From IMG/VR virus record IMGVR_UViG_3300028586_000003, positions 738 through 64,737 of that record: a stretch of DNA of 64,000 nt; one strand, given 5' to 3'. Position 1 is the stretch's first letter. Each line of letters starts with the position of its first letter. Shown piece after piece: positions 16,209 to 42,827 of this stretch. Below the pieces are notes generated by a model. That model searched no databases and was not told the DNA's origin. It was given only the letters and a program-made list of their open reading frames with translations. This DNA comes from a virus (lineage: Duplodnaviria > Caudoviricetes). The translations under genes were made by a program, and so were the position numbers.

Positions 16209-16296
16209 AGCGCATATCGTGCGCAGCAGCGGGTGGCGGTGTCCCATGACGGTCACCCGATGTCAGCACCGGTGGATGCTTCCCACTGACGTAGCG

Positions 16297-16331
16297 CGGG
16301 CCCCGAGTTGATCCGGGGCCCGTTTCGTATT
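16297..16331 (+). terminator. Rho-independent terminator
   Basis: CGGGCCCCG/CGGGGCCCG stem then TTTCGTATTT. Confidence 0.7.
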
Positions 16332-16359
16332 TGCATAATTCACCGGGGTTTTGCATAAA
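16331..16359 (+). promoter_or_regulatory. Candidate sigma70-type promoter with direct repeat
   Basis: TTGCAT-N17-CATAAA; TTGCATAA repeated at 16331 and 16351. Confidence 0.35.
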
Positions 16360-16442
16360 GCCACAGCGGATGATGTCTGTAGGGCTCCCTGCGGGAGACA
16401 TCACGGGAGGGGGTATGGACGCCCCCGACTGGCCCACCTCAT

Positions 16443-16529
16443 GCCGCGGTAGTTCAGTCCGGTAGAACACAACGGCCGCTTTCGGGCGGTGTCAGTAGGG
16501 GGCCGGCGGTTCAAATCCGCCTCGCGGCA
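16443..16529 (+). ncRNA. tRNA-like RNA lacking a canonical anticodon arm
   Basis: Acceptor GCCGCGG/TCGCGGC, U8-A9, D arm GTTC-AGTCCGGTA-GAAC, T arm GGCGG-TTCAAAT-CCGCC, G15/C48, discriminator A, no CCA; 35-nt central part folds as an irregular helix capped by UUCG. Confidence 0.85.
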
Positions 16530-16534
16530 AACAG

Positions 16535-16562
16535 ACGGCGTCACTGGCAACGGTGGCGCCGT
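16535..16562 (+). promoter_or_regulatory. 12-bp GNRA-capped hairpin in tape measure leader
   Basis: ACGGCGTCACTG-GCAA-CGGTGGCGCCGT. Confidence 0.6.
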
Positions 16563-16604
16563 TCGCGTATCCCGACATAGCCATCGACCGCGTACCAGGG
16601 AGCT

Positions 16605-19600
16605 ATGCCTGTGCGCGCCGCTACGTTCACGACCTACATCAATGCCCAAGAAGATCCCGGTCTCGAGGCGGCCTTCAAGCGCCAGGCGACGATTGCCACC
16701 TCGAGCTATGCCACCATCACGCGCGCCGCAGAGCAGGCCACCCGTGCGACTGCCAATCTTCTAGGTGGGCGCGGCACCACGGGCGCGGCGGCGGCGACCA
16801 CCGCCCTCACACAGCGCACGGCAGCGACCCGGACGATGGTCACCGCGGCGGCGGAAGCGGAGCGCGCGACGACCCGGCTGGCGACTGCCACGCGCCGGCA
16901 AGCGAGCGAGACCACCACCGCCGCCAATCGACAGCGCGGGTTCGCCGCCAGCCTGACCACCACGTCGACCGCGTTGAACGTGGTGTCCGGTCGACTCGAT
17001 CCGGTCTCGAGCCGCATCAGTACGCTCGCCCGGGCGGTCACGGATCTCACCGGCCTGCAGCTTGGTCTAGCGGCGTTCGGCGCCACCGTGTTCGCGCTCG
17101 GCCGCACCGCCAGCACCTATGCGAACCTCGAGGCGCGGGTGCGCCCGTTCTTCGATACGCAGAAGTCCGTCAACACGGCGATGAACGACATCATCGGGAT
17201 CGCGCAGCGGTCGCGCAGCGCGCTCGAGCCCGTCGTCGACGTCTACACCCGCCTGACCACCGTCGGGCAAAACATTGGTCTCACGCGGCGCAGCATCGGG
17301 CAGGTCACCGAACTCGCCACGAAGGCGACGGCTGTCGGCGGCGGTAGCTCCCAGGCGCGCGACGCGGCGCTAACACAGTTCGGCCAGGCACTGTCCGGCG
17401 ACTTCAAGTCCGCGGGCCAGGAGATCAACTCGCTGAAGGAGCAGGCGCCCGTCCTCTTCCAAGCGATCCTGAAGGGCTACAAGGATGCCGATGGGACGAT
17501 CGGTGTCTCGCTAGGCAAGTTCAAACAACTTGCCGAAGCCGGGAAGCTGTCAACGGAACAAGTGCTGGATGCGCTGCGCCGCTCGGCATCGTACATCGAC
17601 CAGATGGCGGCGCGCGTGCCGAACACGCTGTCGAAGGCGGGGACGGACTTCAGCAACTCGCTCACGGTGCAGGTCGGCCGGATCGACCAGACCATCGGCT
17701 TCACCTCGACCCTCGCCGATGGTTTGACGCTGGTCGCGCAGAACCTGCGCGTCATCATCGCCCTCGCCGGCGGCGCGATCACCGCGTTCGCTGCGATCAA
17801 GCTCGGCGGGCTGGTTTCGGAGGGTGCCACCGCGGCGCAATCGTTCCTCGCCCTGCGCGCCAATGCCGTAGCGCTTGCCGAGACGCGCAAGGTATCCGCC
17901 GCGGCATCCCTCGCGCAGCATCAGCGTGAGATCGCCGCGCTTGCCGCGGAGCAGGTGCAGATCACCGAAGCGATAGCGCTCGAGCGGCAACGTCAGGCGC
18001 TCGCCCGCACCGATATCCGCCGCGCCACGTTCGACGTTGTGCCTGGACAGGTGGGGCCTTCACGTCAGCAGATCGCGGCCGAAAAGGAGCTTGGATCTTC
18101 GCTGAAGGAGTCGGCCGCTCTTCGCCAGCGCGCGACCGTCATCACCGAAGCAAGCGTAGCAGCGAATGCGCGCGCCGCCGCCTCAACGCAGTCGCTTGCC
18201 CGCGCATCGTCGTTCGCCGGTAAGCAGGTCGGCCTACTGCGCGGAGCCGCCGGCGGTCTCGTGTCGTTCCTTGGTGGCCCGTGGGGCATCGCATTCGCTC
18301 TCGCCGCGACCGCCGTCTACCTCCTCGCCACCGCGGAGTCGGCGGCGGAGATCGCAACGCGCAAGCATGAGGACGCGCAGCGGAGCTTCGCCAACGTCAT
18401 CGATCGCGGCACCGGTAAGATCTACGACCAGGTGGGCGCACTGCAGCGTCTGGCCGTGCAGCAGAAGGTCACGGACAGCGGCCGCGCATCGATCGCGCAG
18501 TTCAACTCCAACCGGACCACTATCGGCACGACCGTCGCACGCGCGGCCAACCTGTCGAACACGCAAGAGAACGATCGCACGCCCGAGCAGCGTCGCGTCG
18601 CCGCCGCGCTTGCCGCATTCCAGCGTGGCGAGAAGGGATCCCTTCCGGCCCTTCAGGGTGTGTTGGCAGACCAAGGCGTTCGCCGTGCGGTCCCCGGGCT
18701 GGCGGGTGCAACGCAGGATCTCGGCGGTCTCTTCGACAACCTGCGCAAGAACATCGACGACGTCGGGCAGGCGGCGGCATCGCGGCGCGTCATTCAGGGG
18801 CGTGCGCGTGACGGGGATCTCAACCGTGCGTTCGGCGAGCCGGTCAAGACCACCGGCAACGGAACGAAGGCGCGTTCGAAGTCACAGATCGATGCGGATG
18901 CCCGGGCGGAGGCGGCGCAGACCGAAGTGCAGCGTGCTCGCGCCGCGCTCGCGCAGACCAAGGCGAACGGCAAGAACGCGGGCGAGGATGACGCCGCGTA
19001 TCAACACCGTCTCGCGGCGGCCTATCAGGCTGTCACATCGGCGGTCTCCAGCCAGGCCGCGGCCCGCAAGTCTGCATCGGAGGGGCGCACGGCGGAGCGA
19101 AAGGCCGCACGCGATGCCGTCCAAGACGCGAAGGATGAAGCGCTCGCGCGGCGCGACGCGGCCAGCGAAGCGCTCCTGAAGTCAAATCCTGACACGAACT
19201 CGCAGGCGTTTCTCGATGCGCGCATCAAGATCCTCCAGACCTATGACGATGAGATCAACAAGATCGACGCGTCAGCGGCGGCGTCGCATAGCGCATCCAG
19301 TCAGCGGCTTGCCGACCTCGAGCGCGAAGAGAAGGCCGCGCCCGGCCGCGGTGAGAAGCGTCGCGACATTCTCGGCAACTATGACGAAGCCCCGAAGGCG
19401 ATCGACAAGGCGCGGGACCAGATCGACGACCTGCAGAAGAACATCGGTCATCTGGTCGACGGCATCGCAGAGGTATCGGACGCCAACCCGCTCGGCCGTG
19501 GTCTCTACACGAAGGAGATCGCGGACGCCGATGCGCAGCGGATCCAGCAAGGTCTCCGTAAGCCGATCAACGACCTGTTCCGCGACCAGGAGCGCGCGAT

Positions 19601-21758
19601 CGCGGTTGCAACGCTGCAGCTTCAGGGTCGCGACGTCGAGGCGGCCGCCCTCGAGAAGCGCAACCAGTTGCTCGACGGCGGGAATGAGCTGTCGAACGCG
19701 GAGTATCAGACGCTCATCGCCAATGAGCGCCAGCAACTCCGGATCAACGATGCGCTCGCGGCACGTCAGCGTGTGGTCAGCACCATCACCGGCGCGCTCG
19801 ACAATGCCCGTGACACCGCCGAGCAACTAATCGTCGGCCTGCAGACGGGCGCGAACCCGAAGAACCTGTTCAAGTCCGCGCTCGCCGACTTCCGCACACA
19901 GTTCGCTCGGATCAACGCGCGCCAGTTGGTTGAGAAGCTGTTCGCCGGGAGCGATGAGAAGCTCCGCGCCATGCTGTCGGGCAAGTCGTCCGTCGACGTC
20001 GCGATCGACAAGTTCGGATCGTCGGTGGACAACCTCACCAGCGGGAGTAGCCGCGGCGTGTCCGCGCTGGAGCAGTTCACGGCGGCGGCAACGGGTGCGG
20101 CCGCGCGGCTCGACGGCATCCAGGCGCCGGGCGGCTTGGGCATCCCGAGCAACGATAACGACGCACCGGCCAGCGGCTCGGAGAGCGCGGAGATCTTGGT
20201 CGTCGGGCGCAAGCTCGCGAAGGGGATCCTCGACGCGCCGAACATCGGGGGAACGCCCACCGCAACCGGCGGTCCGTTCCTGCCGAACCTCGCCGGCGGC
20301 CTGCCCAACGCAAAGCAGGTCTACAACACGGTCGGCTCCAGCTTCCTCGCTCCTGTCGCCAAGGGTCTCGACGGCATCGTCAACAAGATCACTGGCAAGG
20401 GGATCACGAACGCGGACGGCACGGTCGTCGGCGGCTCGCAGTTCTTCCGCAAGATCGGCGACAGCTTCGGCACCGCGCTGCAGGGCGCAGGACAGGGCGC
20501 GTTCGCCTCGAGCATCGCCGAGAAGGTCGGGATCAAGCAGTCTAAGACCGGCGCGCAGGTCGGCGGCGCGATCGGGGGGCTGACAGGCATCCCGGGCGGC
20601 GGCTTCATCGGCGGGCTGATCGGCGGTACAATCGGCGGCCTGTTCAAGAAGACCAAGCAGGCGTCGTCGACGATCGGGACCGACCAGTACGGCGTGCTCG
20701 AGGGGCGCAGCGCGGTCGGCACCGGTAGCGCGGCGAAGGCGCAGGCTGATGCGCTCGGCGGATCCGTCGCGTCTGGTCTCCAGTCGATCGCGGAATCGCT
20801 CGGCGCCAAGATCGGCGACTTCGGTGTCTCGATTGGTTACCGGCCCGGCCACAAGGCGGGCGCGTACCGCGTCGACACGTCGGGATCCGGCAAGCTCACG
20901 GGCGTACAGGCATTCGAGACCGAAGAGGAAGCGGTCAACTTCGCCATCCAGGACGCGATTAAGGATGGCGTGCTGAAAGGGATCTCTGCCGCAAGTCAGA
21001 AGATCCTCGCCAGTGGTCAGAACCTGTCGCGTGCGCTCGCGAAGGCTACCGCGATCGAGTCCATTCCGAAGCGGCTCCTGCAGATCACCGATCCGGTTAA
21101 GTACGCGGTTAGCGAGTTGAACGATGAGTTCACGAACCTGATCTCGTACCTGAAGGAGGGCGGCGCATCGGCCGCGCAGTTCGCAGACGCGCAGAAGCTC
21201 TACGACCTCGAGCGCGAGGCGGCGATCAAGCAGGCTACCAACCAGGCGGCCGACGCGATCAATAGCTTCCTGAAGGACATGGTCGGTGGCGCGTCGTCCC
21301 CGCTCAACAAGCGCACCACGTACGACAACGCGGCGAGCGAACTGGGCAAGTTCAAGGCGGATATCGCATCGGGCAAGGCGGTCGACCAAAACGACCTGCT
21401 CGCCGCGGCACGCAATTTCCAGGACGCCAGCCGGGCTATCTACGGATCGAGCCAGTCGTTCTTCAACGACTTCGAGTCCCTACGCACCCTGCTCACGAAG
21501 GCACGCGACAACGCCGGATCGACCGACATCAGCACGTTGCCCGCGTCGCCATTCACACAGGACAACTCGGTCGCGTCGACGATCGCTGGCCTTAGCGGTG
21601 GGCAGCGTGAGACCACGTCGGCGGTGCAGAGCGGGACGGATGCCCTGGTCGGAAAGCTCAATGAGTTGATCGGCGCGGTCAACAATGGCGGCGGCGCAAC
21701 CGAGAGCGGCCGCGGCTACTCGGCGATTGACCTACTGCCAGCGGCCGCGGGACGATGA
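16605..21758 (+). CDS. Tail tape measure protein
   Basis: 1717 aa Ala-rich helical; QFGQALSGDFKSAGQEINSLKEQAP motif; Gly-rich hydrophobic stretches. Confidence 0.93.
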   Translation: MPVRAATFTTYINAQEDPGLEAAFKRQATIATSSYATITRAAEQATRATANLLGGRGTTGAAAATTALTQRTAATRTMVTAAAEAERATTRLATATRRQASETTTAANRQRGFAASLTTTSTALNVVSGRLDPVSSRISTLARAVTDLTGLQLGLAAFGATVFALGRTASTYANLEARVRPFFDTQKSVNTAMNDIIGIAQRSRSALEPVVDVYTRLTTVGQNIGLTRRSIGQVTELATKATAVGGGSSQARDAALTQFGQALSGDFKSAGQEINSLKEQAPVLFQAILKGYKDADGTIGVSLGKFKQLAEAGKLSTEQVLDALRRSASYIDQMAARVPNTLSKAGTDFSNSLTVQVGRIDQTIGFTSTLADGLTLVAQNLRVIIALAGGAITAFAAIKLGGLVSEGATAAQSFLALRANAVALAETRKVSAAASLAQHQREIAALAAEQVQITEAIALERQRQALARTDIRRATFDVVPGQVGPSRQQIAAEKELGSSLKESAALRQRATVITEASVAANARAAASTQSLARASSFAGKQVGLLRGAAGGLVSFLGGPWGIAFALAATAVYLLATAESAAEIATRKHEDAQRSFANVIDRGTGKIYDQVGALQRLAVQQKVTDSGRASIAQFNSNRTTIGTTVARAANLSNTQENDRTPEQRRVAAALAAFQRGEKGSLPALQGVLADQGVRRAVPGLAGATQDLGGLFDNLRKNIDDVGQAAASRRVIQGRARDGDLNRAFGEPVKTTGNGTKARSKSQIDADARAEAAQTEVQRARAALAQTKANGKNAGEDDAAYQHRLAAAYQAVTSAVSSQAAARKSASEGRTAERKAARDAVQDAKDEALARRDAASEALLKSNPDTNSQAFLDARIKILQTYDDEINKIDASAAASHSASSQRLADLEREEKAAPGRGEKRRDILGNYDEAPKAIDKARDQIDDLQKNIGHLVDGIAEVSDANPLGRGLYTKEIADADAQRIQQGLRKPINDLFRDQERAIAVATLQLQGRDVEAAALEKRNQLLDGGNELSNAEYQTLIANERQQLRINDALAARQRVVSTITGALDNARDTAEQLIVGLQTGANPKNLFKSALADFRTQFARINARQLVEKLFAGSDEKLRAMLSGKSSVDVAIDKFGSSVDNLTSGSSRGVSALEQFTAAATGAAARLDGIQAPGGLGIPSNDNDAPASGSESAEILVVGRKLAKGILDAPNIGGTPTATGGPFLPNLAGGLPNAKQVYNTVGSSFLAPVAKGLDGIVNKITGKGITNADGTVVGGSQFFRKIGDSFGTALQGAGQGAFASSIAEKVGIKQSKTGAQVGGAIGGLTGIPGGGFIGGLIGGTIGGLFKKTKQASSTIGTDQYGVLEGRSAVGTGSAAKAQADALGGSVASGLQSIAESLGAKIGDFGVSIGYRPGHKAGAYRVDTSGSGKLTGVQAFETEEEAVNFAIQDAIKDGVLKGISAASQKILASGQNLSRALAKATAIESIPKRLLQITDPVKYAVSELNDEFTNLISYLKEGGASAAQFADAQKLYDLEREAAIKQATNQAADAINSFLKDMVGGASSPLNKRTTYDNAASELGKFKADIASGKAVDQNDLLAAARNFQDASRAIYGSSQSFFNDFESLRTLLTKARDNAGSTDISTLPASPFTQDNSVASTIAGLSGGQRETTSAVQSGTDALVGKLNELIGAVNNGGGATESGRGYSAIDLLPAAAGR

Positions 21759-40772: not shown

Positions 40773-40798
40773 CGTGTGTTCTTTCGTTTCTGTGCCTT

Positions 40799-40852
40799 GC
40801 CTCATCAGCACCGGAGCGGCGGCCCGGTGGACGCCCTTGCGGGCGTTTCGGC
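40799..40852 (-). ncRNA. Hammerhead ribozyme, type II (copy 1)
   Basis: GCC-GAAAC-GCCC(GCAA)GGGC-GTC^-CACCGG/CCGGTG-CTGATGA-GGC; cleavage predicted between 40830 and 40829. Confidence 0.93.
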
Positions 40853-40853
40853 T

Positions 40854-42418: not shown

Positions 42419-42444
42419 CGTTCAATCTTTCGTTTCTAGGGGCT

Positions 42445-42500
42445 GGCTCATCAGCACCCGGACGCCCTGCCCGGATGGACCCGCTTGCGCGGGTTTCGCC
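42445..42500 (-). ncRNA. Hammerhead ribozyme, type II (copy 2)
   Basis: GGC-GAAAC-CCGC(GCAA)GCGG-GTC^-CATCCGG/CCGGGTG-CTGATGA-GCC; cleavage between 42478 and 42477. Confidence 0.93.
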
Positions 42501-42827
42501 TTATGCGACGAACGCCGGGGGGCCGTGGCGCACTGCCCAGATTGCCGCCGGGTGGTTGTAGGGCATGATATCGCCGGGGATCATGCGCCGTTGCACGGCA
42601 TCCGCTGGCACCTGCACATAACGGTGCCGAGCGTCGTGCGCGTTGTGCGTTAATTCGGTAAGCTGGCGAACGCTGGCGACGACGAAGCCCGCGCCGGTCG
42701 TTCCGCTAAGGTCCGGAACCAATGCAATCGCGGAGCCTGCGGGGAGGGTGAAGGGATAGCCGCCGCGTGTGACGTTCGCCCACGCGACTAGATCGAGGTC
42801 GCGGGTGGTGGTGTGCGTGACGCGCAT
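42501..42827 (-). CDS. Early hypothetical protein
   Basis: MRVTHTTTRDL start; TAA abuts hammerhead 2. Confidence 0.55.
   Translation of the reverse strand: MRVTHTTTRDLDLVAWANVTRGGYPFTLPAGSAIALVPDLSGTTGAGFVVASVRQLTELTHNAHDARHRYVQVPADAVQRRMIPGDIMPYNHPAAIWAVRHGPPAFVA

What the first reader, a model, noticed from the sequence alone, without database searches (positions are those of the whole stretch)
16443..16529. Anticodon-less tRNA mimic upstream of the tape measure gene
Seen: 7-bp acceptor stem, U8/A9, D arm with A14-G15 and G18G19, T arm with TTCAAAT, Levitt pair G15-C48 and A73 are all canonical. The 35 nt between the D and T arms give no 5-bp stem with a 7-nt loop; they form an irregular helix capped by a UUCG tetraloop. 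No CCA is encoded. Intact elbow and acceptor features argue for selection rather than decay. Hypotheses (inference): (a) a cis RNase P/3'-processing signal cutting the late mRNA just before the tape measure gene, echoing the ribozyme processing of the early operon; (b) an uncleavable decoy for tRNA-binding or anticodon-nuclease defences; (c) an uncharged-tRNA mimic acting on stringent-response sensors.
Basis: partly seen in the sequence, partly recalled or inferred. Interest (0 to 1): 0.82.

Follow-up and report, generated by a model that had tools for sequence, protein, structure and literature searches.

The report
Phage tRNA look-alike lacking an anticodon
Just before its tail-length gene, this phage carries a gene that looks like a tRNA in every part except the codon-reading arm, so it cannot translate; it is most likely a disabled passenger tRNA that tRNA-processing enzymes still cut out, and nothing yet shows it is kept for a purpose.

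Summary
Window 16443-16529 (+) is a tRNA-derived gene (Rfam tRNA 43.7 bits against a cut-off of 29). It has a perfect 7-bp acceptor stem, D arm, T arm and A73, and no encoded CCA. The 35 nt between the D and T arms give no 5-bp/7-nt anticodon arm in any register, even after removing any one contiguous segment. ARAGORN's "tRNA-Lys(UUU)" is a forced call. The UUCG-capped helix is only one of several folds and is about 5 kcal/mol worse than the best.

The element sits in a 204-nt cassette (16330-16533) in a hypervariable slot before the tape measure gene. Three of 22 relatives hold ordinary tRNA-Met or tRNA-Cys genes there, all with CCA. Its body matches viral tRNA-Phe(GAA) genes (identical acceptor and T stems).

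No second copy was found anywhere, and the nearest relative differs in this slot, so selection cannot be tested.

Best reading (0.55): a non-decoding derivative of a cargo tRNA, still excised by RNase P and 3' processing, which cuts the leader off the tape measure message. A selected processing signal (0.2) or a trans-acting mimic (0.12) remain possible.

The closest known RNA is phage T5 RNA1. This scan has noted anticodon-free tRNA look-alikes in other phages.

The parts
16296..16323 (+). Intrinsic terminator hairpin (10 pairs, then a T-rich tail) closing the upstream tail-gene block. Homology with the closest relative (L039) ends just after it, at 16329.
16331..16358 (+). Two direct copies of TTGCATAA, 20 nt apart, found nowhere else in the genome. 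Possible weak promoter (TTGCAT, 17 nt, CATAAA) or regulator site. This is the left end of the cargo cassette. A similar TTGCATAATTCA motif lies in the slot of relative L040.
   Evidence: the promoter reading is inference (the strict scan found none)
16371..16431 (+). Two leader hairpins. The first (16371-16403) lies within a 42-nt stretch (16366-16407) that is 93% identical to relatives L102/L103, with one compensatory pair change. Those relatives have the hairpins but no tRNA-like gene.
16443..16529 (+). The tRNA-like gene, 87 nt. Acceptor 16443-16449/16522-16528, D arm 16452-16468, T arm 16505-16521, discriminator A16529, no CCA.
16470..16504 (+). Central 35 nt that replace the 17-nt anticodon arm and 5-nt variable loop. 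No canonical arm is possible and several competing folds exist. The region contains GTGTC, the variable-loop sequence of tRNA-Phe.
16534..16563 (+). 13-bp hairpin with a GCAA tetraloop, 5 nt after the tRNA-like gene. Homology with relatives resumes here. Relative L040 keeps the hairpin through pair-preserving changes. It belongs to the tape measure leader, not to the cargo.
16605..21758 (+). Tape measure protein gene. The start conserved in relatives is the GTG at 16611, preceded by GGAG.

Best explanation
The element is a non-decoding derivative of a passenger ('cargo') tRNA gene with a tRNA-Phe/Met-type body. It sits in a fast-turnover slot between the last tail-assembly gene and the tape measure gene. 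Its anticodon arm and variable region have been remodelled into 35 nt of weakly structured sequence, and it encodes no CCA, so it cannot read a codon.

Inferred mechanism: it is transcribed as part of the tape measure leader. Its intact acceptor/T-arm stack and D/T elbow are still recognised by RNase P, which would cut between U16442 and G16443. A 3' tRNA-processing nuclease would cut after A16529. The result would be an RNA of about 87 nt and a tape measure message that starts a few bases before a conserved GNRA hairpin.

I see no evidence that the element is maintained by selection. It is best viewed as one stage in the turnover of tRNA cargo at this site.
For: Shown:
- It is tRNA-derived, with an intact body (Rfam 43.7 bits with the centre skipped).
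- It has no canonical anticodon arm under any register or single deletion.
- The centre folds no better than shuffles (z -0.96) and has at least three competing folds.
- Homology with relatives stops at 16329 and resumes at 16534, so the element lies in a discrete 204-nt cassette.
- The slot ranges from 75 to 2078 nt across 22 distinct relatives. Three of them hold ordinary tRNAs there: L005 Met, and L042 and L101 Cys, the Cys genes ending 72 nt before the tape measure start against 81 nt here.
- All those tRNAs encode CCA.
- The closest relative (93% identical neighbouring protein, L039) has different sequence after the terminator.
- The acceptor stem, T stem and A73 are identical to viral tRNA-Phe(GAA) genes L110/L116, and the Phe variable-loop sequence GTGTC survives inside the centre.
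- 24 of 26 bases of the variable-loop/T-arm region match host-family tRNA-Met.
- No second copy was found in IMG/VR pattern scans, 50,697 phage records or 201 Sphingomonadaceae genomes.
- The nearest full-length tape measure homologue is 76% identical.

Established knowledge: RNase P, RNase Z and the CCA-adding enzyme need only the acceptor/T-arm domain. U at -1 is the favoured RNase P context.
Against: All 16 stem pairs and all universal tertiary bases are intact, while the centre bears almost no trace of an anticodon arm. Read against tRNA-Phe, the centre needs several separate changes: 3 extra nt after position 26, a changed loop, and about 11 extra nt after GTGTC. Damage confined to the two parts needed for translation (anticodon and CCA) is not what random decay predicts. 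It hints at selection on the body.

Two relatives carry other tRNA-like genes with intact ends and enlarged centres (L042 3935-4045, L021 1457-1545). That scan required intact ends, so the sample is biased.

No RNA data exist, so transcription and cleavage are inferred.
Confidence: 0.55

Rival explanations
1. A selected cis-acting processing signal, a phage counterpart of the plant mitochondrial 't-element'. The tRNA body is kept because the RNase P / 3'-nuclease cut separates the leader from the tape measure message and leaves it with a protective 5' hairpin. Decoding ability was dispensable and was lost.
For: The body is intact and U is at -1. A tRNA or tRNA-like gene lies directly upstream of the same roughly 75-nt tape measure leader in 4 of 23 slots. 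The conserved GNRA hairpin begins 5 nt downstream and shows pair-preserving changes in L040. The same phage punctuates another operon with type II hammerhead ribozymes (two Rfam hits). t-elements are a documented precedent (PMC1920247).
Against: Most relatives (19 of 23 slots) express the tape measure gene with no tRNA or tRNA-like element, and they keep the same hairpin. The cut is therefore not required. The element is a singleton, so no conservation can be shown. An ordinary tRNA would do the same job.
Confidence: 0.2
2. A trans-acting tRNA mimic. The excised, uncharged, anticodon-less RNA would bind a host or phage protein that recognises the tRNA body or acceptor end. Candidates are an acceptor-end-modifying toxin, a tRNA-modifying enzyme or a nuclease. 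It would act as a sponge or decoy.
For: Loss is confined to the anticodon arm and CCA, with a perfect body. Phage T5 RNA1 shows the same architecture: a tRNA-Leu-type body with an enlarged central arm, annotated as a stable tRNA-like RNA. My narrow IMG/VR pattern found about 18 distinct other viral tRNA-like genes with fully paired acceptor stems and non-canonical centres.
Against: No partner is suggested. No tRNA-related enzyme, Ro60/TROVE protein or integrase appears among the 40 ORFs and 2 families checked. The centre has no significant structure. Known anticodon nucleases need the anticodon loop. The element is a singleton. The IMG/VR set is heterogeneous and probably includes intron-bearing tRNAs of archaeal or eukaryotic viruses.
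Confidence: 0.12
3. A working decoding tRNA with an unusual anticodon arm, for example ARAGORN's tRNA-Lys(UUU) or a tRNA with a short intron.
For: ARAGORN calls tRNA-Lys(ttt). With introns allowed it calls tRNA-Arg(tcg) with a 5-nt intron.
Against: The two ARAGORN calls disagree. The Lys model has a G-G mismatch, C33 and C37, three extra bases at the 26/27 junction and a 15-nt unpaired variable region. No single excision restores a canonical arm. Bacteria have no machinery for such short tRNA introns (established knowledge).
Confidence: 0.03
4. A DNA-level relic that is not expressed as RNA, such as a recombination scar or the remnant of an attachment site copied from a tRNA gene.
For: 20 nt of the T-arm region are identical to host-family tRNA-Met genes. 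The slot is a recombination hotspot.
Against: Both halves of the tRNA are present and pair perfectly, unlike an attachment core that holds only the 3' part. No tyrosine integrase is present. The 5' half is absent from 31 host-family genomes searched. The element lies between a promoter-like motif and an essential late gene on the coding strand.
Confidence: 0.05

Closest known systems
Phage T5 RNA1 (NC_005859 30501-30644, annotated 'tRNA-like stable RNA with unknown functions')
   Same: A phage-encoded RNA with a tRNA-type acceptor stem, D arm and T arm, and an enlarged irregular arm where the anticodon arm belongs. It lies among tRNA genes and its function is unknown.
   Different: T5 RNA1 is 144 nt with a tRNA-Leu-type body, a separate variable-arm hairpin and a much longer centre. 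I did not look for sequence similarity. The T5 RNA is documented as a stable RNA, whereas expression of this element is not shown.
t-elements of plant mitochondria (PMC1920247)
   Same: These are non-canonical tRNA-like folds embedded in mRNA leaders or trailers. They are thought to direct RNase P and RNase Z cuts that define mRNA ends. The predicted behaviour here is the same.
   Different: They occur in an organelle, not a phage, and there is no homology. Their ends were mapped experimentally; here nothing is mapped.
Ordinary cargo tRNAs in the same slot of related phages (L042 and L101 tRNA-Cys, L005 tRNA-Met) and viral tRNA-Phe(GAA) genes L110/L116
   Same: They hold the same position just upstream of the tape measure leader. 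Acceptor stem, T stem and A73 are identical to L110/L116 tRNA-Phe, and the GTGTC variable-loop sequence is shared.
   Different: They have a canonical 17-nt anticodon arm and an encoded CCA and score 49-63 bits. This element has 35 nt in place of 22, no CCA, and scores 43.7 bits.
YrlA (bacterial and phage Y RNA-like RNA with a tRNA-like domain, Rfam RF02553)
   Same: It is a tRNA mimic without an anticodon. A sub-threshold YrlA-like match occurs in a related phage (L019 946-1016, 31.9 bits).
   Different: YrlA has a permuted order (T arm, closed acceptor hairpin, D arm) and a Ro60-binding stem. This element has the normal order, gives no YrlA match, and the phage has no TROVE protein.
mascRNA / MEN-beta tRNA-like RNAs (Rfam RF01684)
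   Same: They are tRNA-like, lack a functional anticodon, and are released by RNase P and RNase Z from a longer transcript.
   Different: They are eukaryotic. The match here is only 15.2 bits against a cut-off of 42.5.

Membership tests
tRNA (Rfam RF00005), by homology | Score at or above the curated gathering threshold of 29 bits | tested here: met
   43.7 bits, E 5.4e-6 in the window.
tRNA, as a working decoder | 7-bp acceptor stem, 4-bp D stem with G18G19, 5-bp T stem with a TTCRANY loop | tested here: met
   All pairs and conserved bases are present.
tRNA, as a working decoder | Anticodon arm: 5-bp stem and 7-nt loop with U33 and a purine at 37 | tested here: not met
   No register or single excision gives it. 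ARAGORN's model has a mismatch, C33 and C37.
tRNA, as a working decoder | 3' CCA, encoded as in all tRNAs of this phage clade and of the host family, or added after transcription | tested here: inconclusive
   CCA is not encoded: the sequence after A73 is AAC. The relatives' tRNAs and a host tRNA-Met all encode it. Post-transcriptional addition cannot be tested here.
t-element-like processing signal | Non-canonical tRNA-like fold within an mRNA leader, next to the mRNA end | tested here: met
   The element lies 81 nt upstream of the tape measure start, on the same strand, between a terminator and the gene.
t-element-like processing signal | Transcript ends coincide with the boundaries of the element | not testable with these tools
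YrlA (RF02553) | Permuted tRNA-like domain, a Ro60-binding helix, and usually a neighbouring rsr/TROVE gene | tested here: not met
   No YrlA match even at E up to 10. No TROVE domain in the genome. The arms are in the normal order.
tmRNA | tRNA-like domain joined to a tag reading frame and pseudoknots | tested here: not met
   ARAGORN and Rfam report no tmRNA. The element is only 87 nt.
Phage tRNA-like stable RNAs (T5 RNA1 type) | tRNA body with an enlarged central arm in place of the anticodon arm | tested here: met
   The architecture was compared by folding.
Phage tRNA-like stable RNAs (T5 RNA1 type) | Accumulates as a stable processed RNA | not testable with these tools
   No expression data.
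Phage attachment site within a tRNA gene | Only the 3' part of a host tRNA, next to an integrase gene | tested here: not met
   Both halves are present. No PF00589 integrase. The D arm is not found in 31 host-family genomes.

The most novel reading that the evidence does not exclude
The element is one member of a broad, undescribed class of phage RNAs: tRNA bodies that have deliberately lost the anticodon arm and CCA. They would be kept either as RNase P/Z punctuation marks for late messages or as uncharged tRNA-body decoys. In favour are the damage confined to the two translation-specific parts, two further enlarged-centre tRNA-like genes in the same phage clade, about 18 distinct similar genes from one narrow IMG/VR pattern, and T5 RNA1.
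Probability: 0.2. Interest if true: 0.7.

Novelty: new member of a known kind. Interest (0 to 1): 0.36.

Why it matters
Practical: standard pipelines will annotate this gene as tRNA-Lys(UUU), which is wrong. Codon-usage or host-range arguments built on that call would be misleading.

Biological: the locus shows that the site just upstream of the tape measure gene is a landing place for tRNA cargo in a clade of sphingomonad phages, and this copy has lost decoding. If such anticodon-less bodies prove to be conserved, they would join T5 RNA1 and the T4 stable RNAs as phage tRNA mimics whose function has been open for decades. This locus predicts a simple assay: one RNase P cut, one 3' cut, and a defined mRNA 5' end. 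As it stands, the element is a single copy with no evidence of selection, so its weight is modest.

Tried and rejected
Searches for a second copy, all negative:
- Exact and degenerate DNA patterns in IMG/VR.
- megablast and blastn against 50,697 phage records.
- BLAST against 201 Sphingomonadaceae genomes, which gave only partial T-arm hits to tRNA-Met.
- The scan's own index.

Closer relatives through neighbouring proteins:
- The upstream 232-aa protein has 148 homologues. Its slot was read in 22 distinct loci, and none carries the element.
- The tape measure N-terminus has no homologue above 76% identity and no fragment hits.

Alternative identities rejected:
- YrlA, tmRNA and mascRNA: no match or far sub-threshold.
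- Attachment site: no integrase, and both tRNA halves are present.
- Intron-bearing tRNA: no excision restores an arm.
- Copy of a host tRNA: the D arm was not found in 31 host-family genomes searched.

Other points:
- Derivation from tRNA-Met was my first reading, from the T-arm identity. I revised it to a Phe-type body after finding identical acceptor and T stems and GTGTC in viral tRNA-Phe genes. The isotype of the ancestor remains uncertain.
- I considered that the loop sequence UUUC (a Phe codon) could pair with the tRNA-Phe anticodon. I dropped it because a self-isotype codon in a 7-nt loop is expected by chance about one time in six.
- Folding the whole leader did not keep the cloverleaf. 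That is uninformative for GC-rich sequence.
- A strict sigma-70 scan found no promoter.
- No complex or structure prediction was run, because no protein partner is proposed.

Full report
WHAT IS THERE

The window is almost the whole of a complete 64.7-kb viral record with direct terminal repeats. It has a lambda-like head module: gpA-type terminase, lambda-family portal, decoration protein D and E-type capsid protein. It also has a 1,717-aa tape measure protein and a replication module with DnaG-type primase, RecT, an SNF2 helicase, a C5 methylase, HU and a Ros/MucR regulator.

Ros/MucR points to an alphaproteobacterial host. Homologues of a neighbouring protein are named from Sphingomonas and occur in a Sphingomonadaceae MAG, which narrows the likely host to that family.

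THE ELEMENT

At 16443-16529 on the + strand lies an 87-nt tRNA-like gene. ARAGORN finds it (16442-16530, 'tRNA-Lys ttt'). It is the only tRNA hit in the window for Rfam (43.7 bits, cut-off 29, E 5.4e-6).

The Rfam alignment covers the acceptor stem, D arm, T arm and discriminator with high posterior probability. It skips 28 nt where the anticodon arm should be. The sequence after A73 is AAC, so no CCA is encoded.

THE CENTRE CANNOT DECODE

I enumerated every way of reading the 35 nt between position 26 and the T stem. The model was a 17-nt anticodon arm plus a variable region, after removing any single contiguous segment of 0-25 nt. No solution has five stem pairs together with U33 and a purine at 37.

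ARAGORN's Lys model has a G-G mismatch, C at 33 and at 37, three extra bases after position 26, and a 15-nt unpaired variable region. With introns allowed, ARAGORN changes its call to tRNA-Arg(tcg). Neither call is credible.

With the three tRNA arms held fixed, the energies are as follows:
- No central structure: -23.3 kcal/mol.
- A CUUU-loop helix starting at position 27: -31.5.
- ARAGORN's arm: -29.8.
- A long irregular arm pairing GGCC 16474-16477 with GGCC 16501-16504: -37.9.

The centre alone folds no better than shuffled sequence (z -0.96). The shape of the centre is therefore undetermined, and the tetraloop is not the favoured fold.

CONTEXT

A strong terminator (16296-16323) closes the preceding gene block. 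Next come:
- Two copies of TTGCATAA, unique in the genome.
- Two leader hairpins.
- The tRNA-like gene.
- A 13-bp GCAA-capped hairpin (16534-16563).
- The tape measure start (GTG 16611 after GGAG).

Through the 232-aa protein encoded just upstream (148 homologues), I collected related loci from IMG/VR, JGI metagenomes, GTDB and Logan/ENA assemblies.

BLAST of the intergenic region against them shows that homology stops at 16329 and resumes at 16534. The tRNA-like gene therefore lies in a discrete 204-nt cassette.

Across 22 distinct relatives the same slot ranges from 75 to 2,078 nt:
- Distant relatives have no cargo.
- Closer relatives have small ORFs.
- Three have ordinary tRNAs. L005 has tRNA-Met. 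L042 and L101 have tRNA-Cys ending 72 nt before the tape measure start, against 81 nt here. All three encode CCA.

The first leader hairpin recurs in L102/L103 (a 42-nt stretch, 93% identical, one compensatory pair) without a tRNA-like gene. The downstream GNRA hairpin is part of the conserved tape measure leader and keeps its pairs in L040 through G-C to U-G and U-G to C-G changes.

The closest relative of all (L039, 93% identical neighbouring protein) already diverges right after the terminator. This is a hotspot for cargo turnover, and tRNA genes are a recurrent cargo there.

ANCESTRY

Within Sphingomonadaceae genomes, the only matches are partial ones to the T-arm side of tRNA-Met genes (24 of 26 bases). 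The D-arm sequence was not found in 31 genomes at up to two mismatches.

A pattern built on the acceptor stem found 13 viral tRNAs with the same acceptor: Phe(GAA), Ile(UAU) and Thr(CGU). The tRNA-Phe genes L110/L116 share three things with this element:
- An identical acceptor stem and A73.
- An identical T stem.
- The variable-loop sequence GTGTC, which occurs inside the centre of this element.

Read against tRNA-Phe, the centre shows three extra bases after position 26, a changed stem and loop, the old variable loop, and about 11 extra bases before the T stem. The match of a 5-mer is only mildly significant (about 0.03 by chance, and noticed after the fact), so I treat the Phe ancestry as probable, not shown.

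NO SECOND COPY

No second copy appeared in any of these searches:
- Exact and degenerate pattern scans of 2.9 million viral contigs.
- 50,697 phage records.
- 201 host-family genomes.
- The scan's own index.

The nearest full-length tape measure homologue among 5.8 billion protein clusters is 76% identical, and no fragments of closer relatives exist.

HOW IT MOST LIKELY WORKS

Shown: the gene has an intact acceptor/T-arm stack and D/T elbow, U at -1, no anticodon arm and no CCA. It sits on the coding strand in the tape measure leader.

From established knowledge: bacterial RNase P, RNase Z and the CCA-adding enzyme recognise the acceptor/T-arm domain and do not need the anticodon arm. MetRS and PheRS need the anticodon. 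AlaRS needs G3-U70, which is absent here (C3-G70). RelA needs a codon-paired A-site tRNA.

Inferred: the RNA is cut out like the ordinary tRNAs that occupy this site in relatives, and it remains uncharged. The tape measure message is left starting just before its conserved hairpin.

Whether the cut is useful or incidental is open:
- For incidental (0.55): the element is a singleton, the slot turns over quickly, the centre is unstructured, and 19 of 23 slots lack any tRNA yet keep the same leader hairpin.
- For selected (0.2 for a cis signal, 0.12 for a trans-acting mimic): the damage is confined to the two parts needed only for translation, apparently through several separate changes, while all 16 stem pairs and the universal bases survive.

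WIDER PATTERN (leads, not proof)

In the same clade, L042 has a tRNA-Cys paralogue just upstream of its real tRNA-Cys. It has a 7-bp acceptor stem extended by three further pairs (10 bp in all) and a 53-nt centre. L021 has an 89-nt tRNA-like gene with a 36-nt centre. My scan required intact ends, so these two cannot be used to argue against decay.

One narrow IMG/VR pattern (a specific D loop and T loop, 36-48 nt apart) returned 40 loci. About 18 distinct sequences have fully paired acceptor stems and non-canonical, often hairpin-extended centres. The set is heterogeneous and probably includes intron-bearing tRNAs of archaeal or eukaryotic viruses.

Phage T5 RNA1, annotated as a tRNA-like stable RNA of unknown function, folds as a tRNA-Leu-type body with an enlarged central arm. 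It is the closest described precedent. Plant mitochondrial t-elements are the closest functional analogue for the processing model. Earlier notes of this scan report anticodon-free tRNA look-alikes in other phages. I checked only the T5 lead.

VERDICT

The element is real and the description is accurate apart from the favoured fold of the centre. It is a new member of a known kind: a phage tRNA-like RNA or disabled cargo tRNA.

Interest is moderate to low as a single case (0.36). It would rise if a body-only covariance-model survey shows conserved families of such RNAs.

Noticed in passing
window 40791-40853 (-) and 42437-42501 (-): Two type II hammerhead ribozymes score above the Rfam gathering threshold (41.7 and 49.5 bits).
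   Followed up: partly
window 16331-16358 and 16371-16431 (+): TTGCATAA occurs twice, 20 nt apart, and nowhere else in the genome. Two leader hairpins follow. The first lies in a 42-nt stretch (16366-16407) that is 93% identical to relatives L102/L103 (3073-3114) with one compensatory pair. This may be a portable promoter/leader module used with different downstream cargo.
   Followed up: partly
window 16534-16563 (+): A 13-bp hairpin with a GCAA tetraloop lies in the tape measure leader. It falls within the leader stretch that aligns with L040, L099, L100, L104 and L023, and shows pair-preserving substitutions in L040. It is a candidate 5' stabiliser or attenuator of the tape measure message.
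   Followed up: partly
L019 946-1016 (IMGVR_UViG_3300044445_000048): A sub-threshold YrlA (Y RNA-like) match (31.9 bits, E 0.0011) lies between tRNA-Met and tRNA-Trp. The order is the permuted one: T arm, closed acceptor-like hairpin, D arm. I did not check whether that phage encodes a Ro60/TROVE protein.
   Followed up: partly
L019 667-860 and L021 1240-1440: Conserved blocks follow tRNA-Met in two related phages: a GAGC-GAAA-GCUC hairpin and the motif GCGAGUGAGUAGG. They lie within a stretch of about 200-300 nt that ends in a T-arm/acceptor-like closure. This may be an undescribed structured RNA. No Rfam family matched it.
   Followed up: partly
L042 3935-4045 (Logan SRR33299894 contig): A tRNA-Cys paralogue lies directly upstream of a normal tRNA-Cys, in the same slot before the tape measure gene. 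It has a 7-bp acceptor stem extended by three further pairs (10 bp in all), a Cys-type D arm, a 53-nt hairpin-extended centre and a normal T arm. Fold z is -3.0, and Rfam tRNA scores only 19.6 bits.
   Followed up: partly
L021 1457-1545 (IMGVR_UViG_3300034069_000954): An 89-nt tRNA-like gene with a 7-bp acceptor stem, a D-like arm with GG, a T arm and a 36-nt centre. ARAGORN misses it. The best Rfam hit is tRNA-Sec at 23.7 bits, below threshold.
   Followed up: partly
L063, L064, L066, L076, L080, L087 (IMG/VR contigs): A family of viral tRNA-like genes with a fully paired acceptor stem and canonical D/T loop motifs. Their anticodon arm is replaced by a 28-nt hairpin built round the perfect 14-nt palindrome CCATGGGCCCATGG. 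ARAGORN calls them tRNA-Pro or tRNA-Thr with a 10-11-nt intron. The host domain is unknown.
   Followed up: no
window 16442-16530: ARAGORN labels the element tRNA-Lys(UUU). Automated annotation would therefore record a decoding tRNA that the sequence cannot support.
   Followed up: yes
window 16416-16452 (+): A 12-codon ORF (ATG after GGGAGGGGG) ends with a TAG that overlaps positions 8-10 of the tRNA-like gene. It is not conserved in L102/L103 and is probably fortuitous.
   Followed up: no
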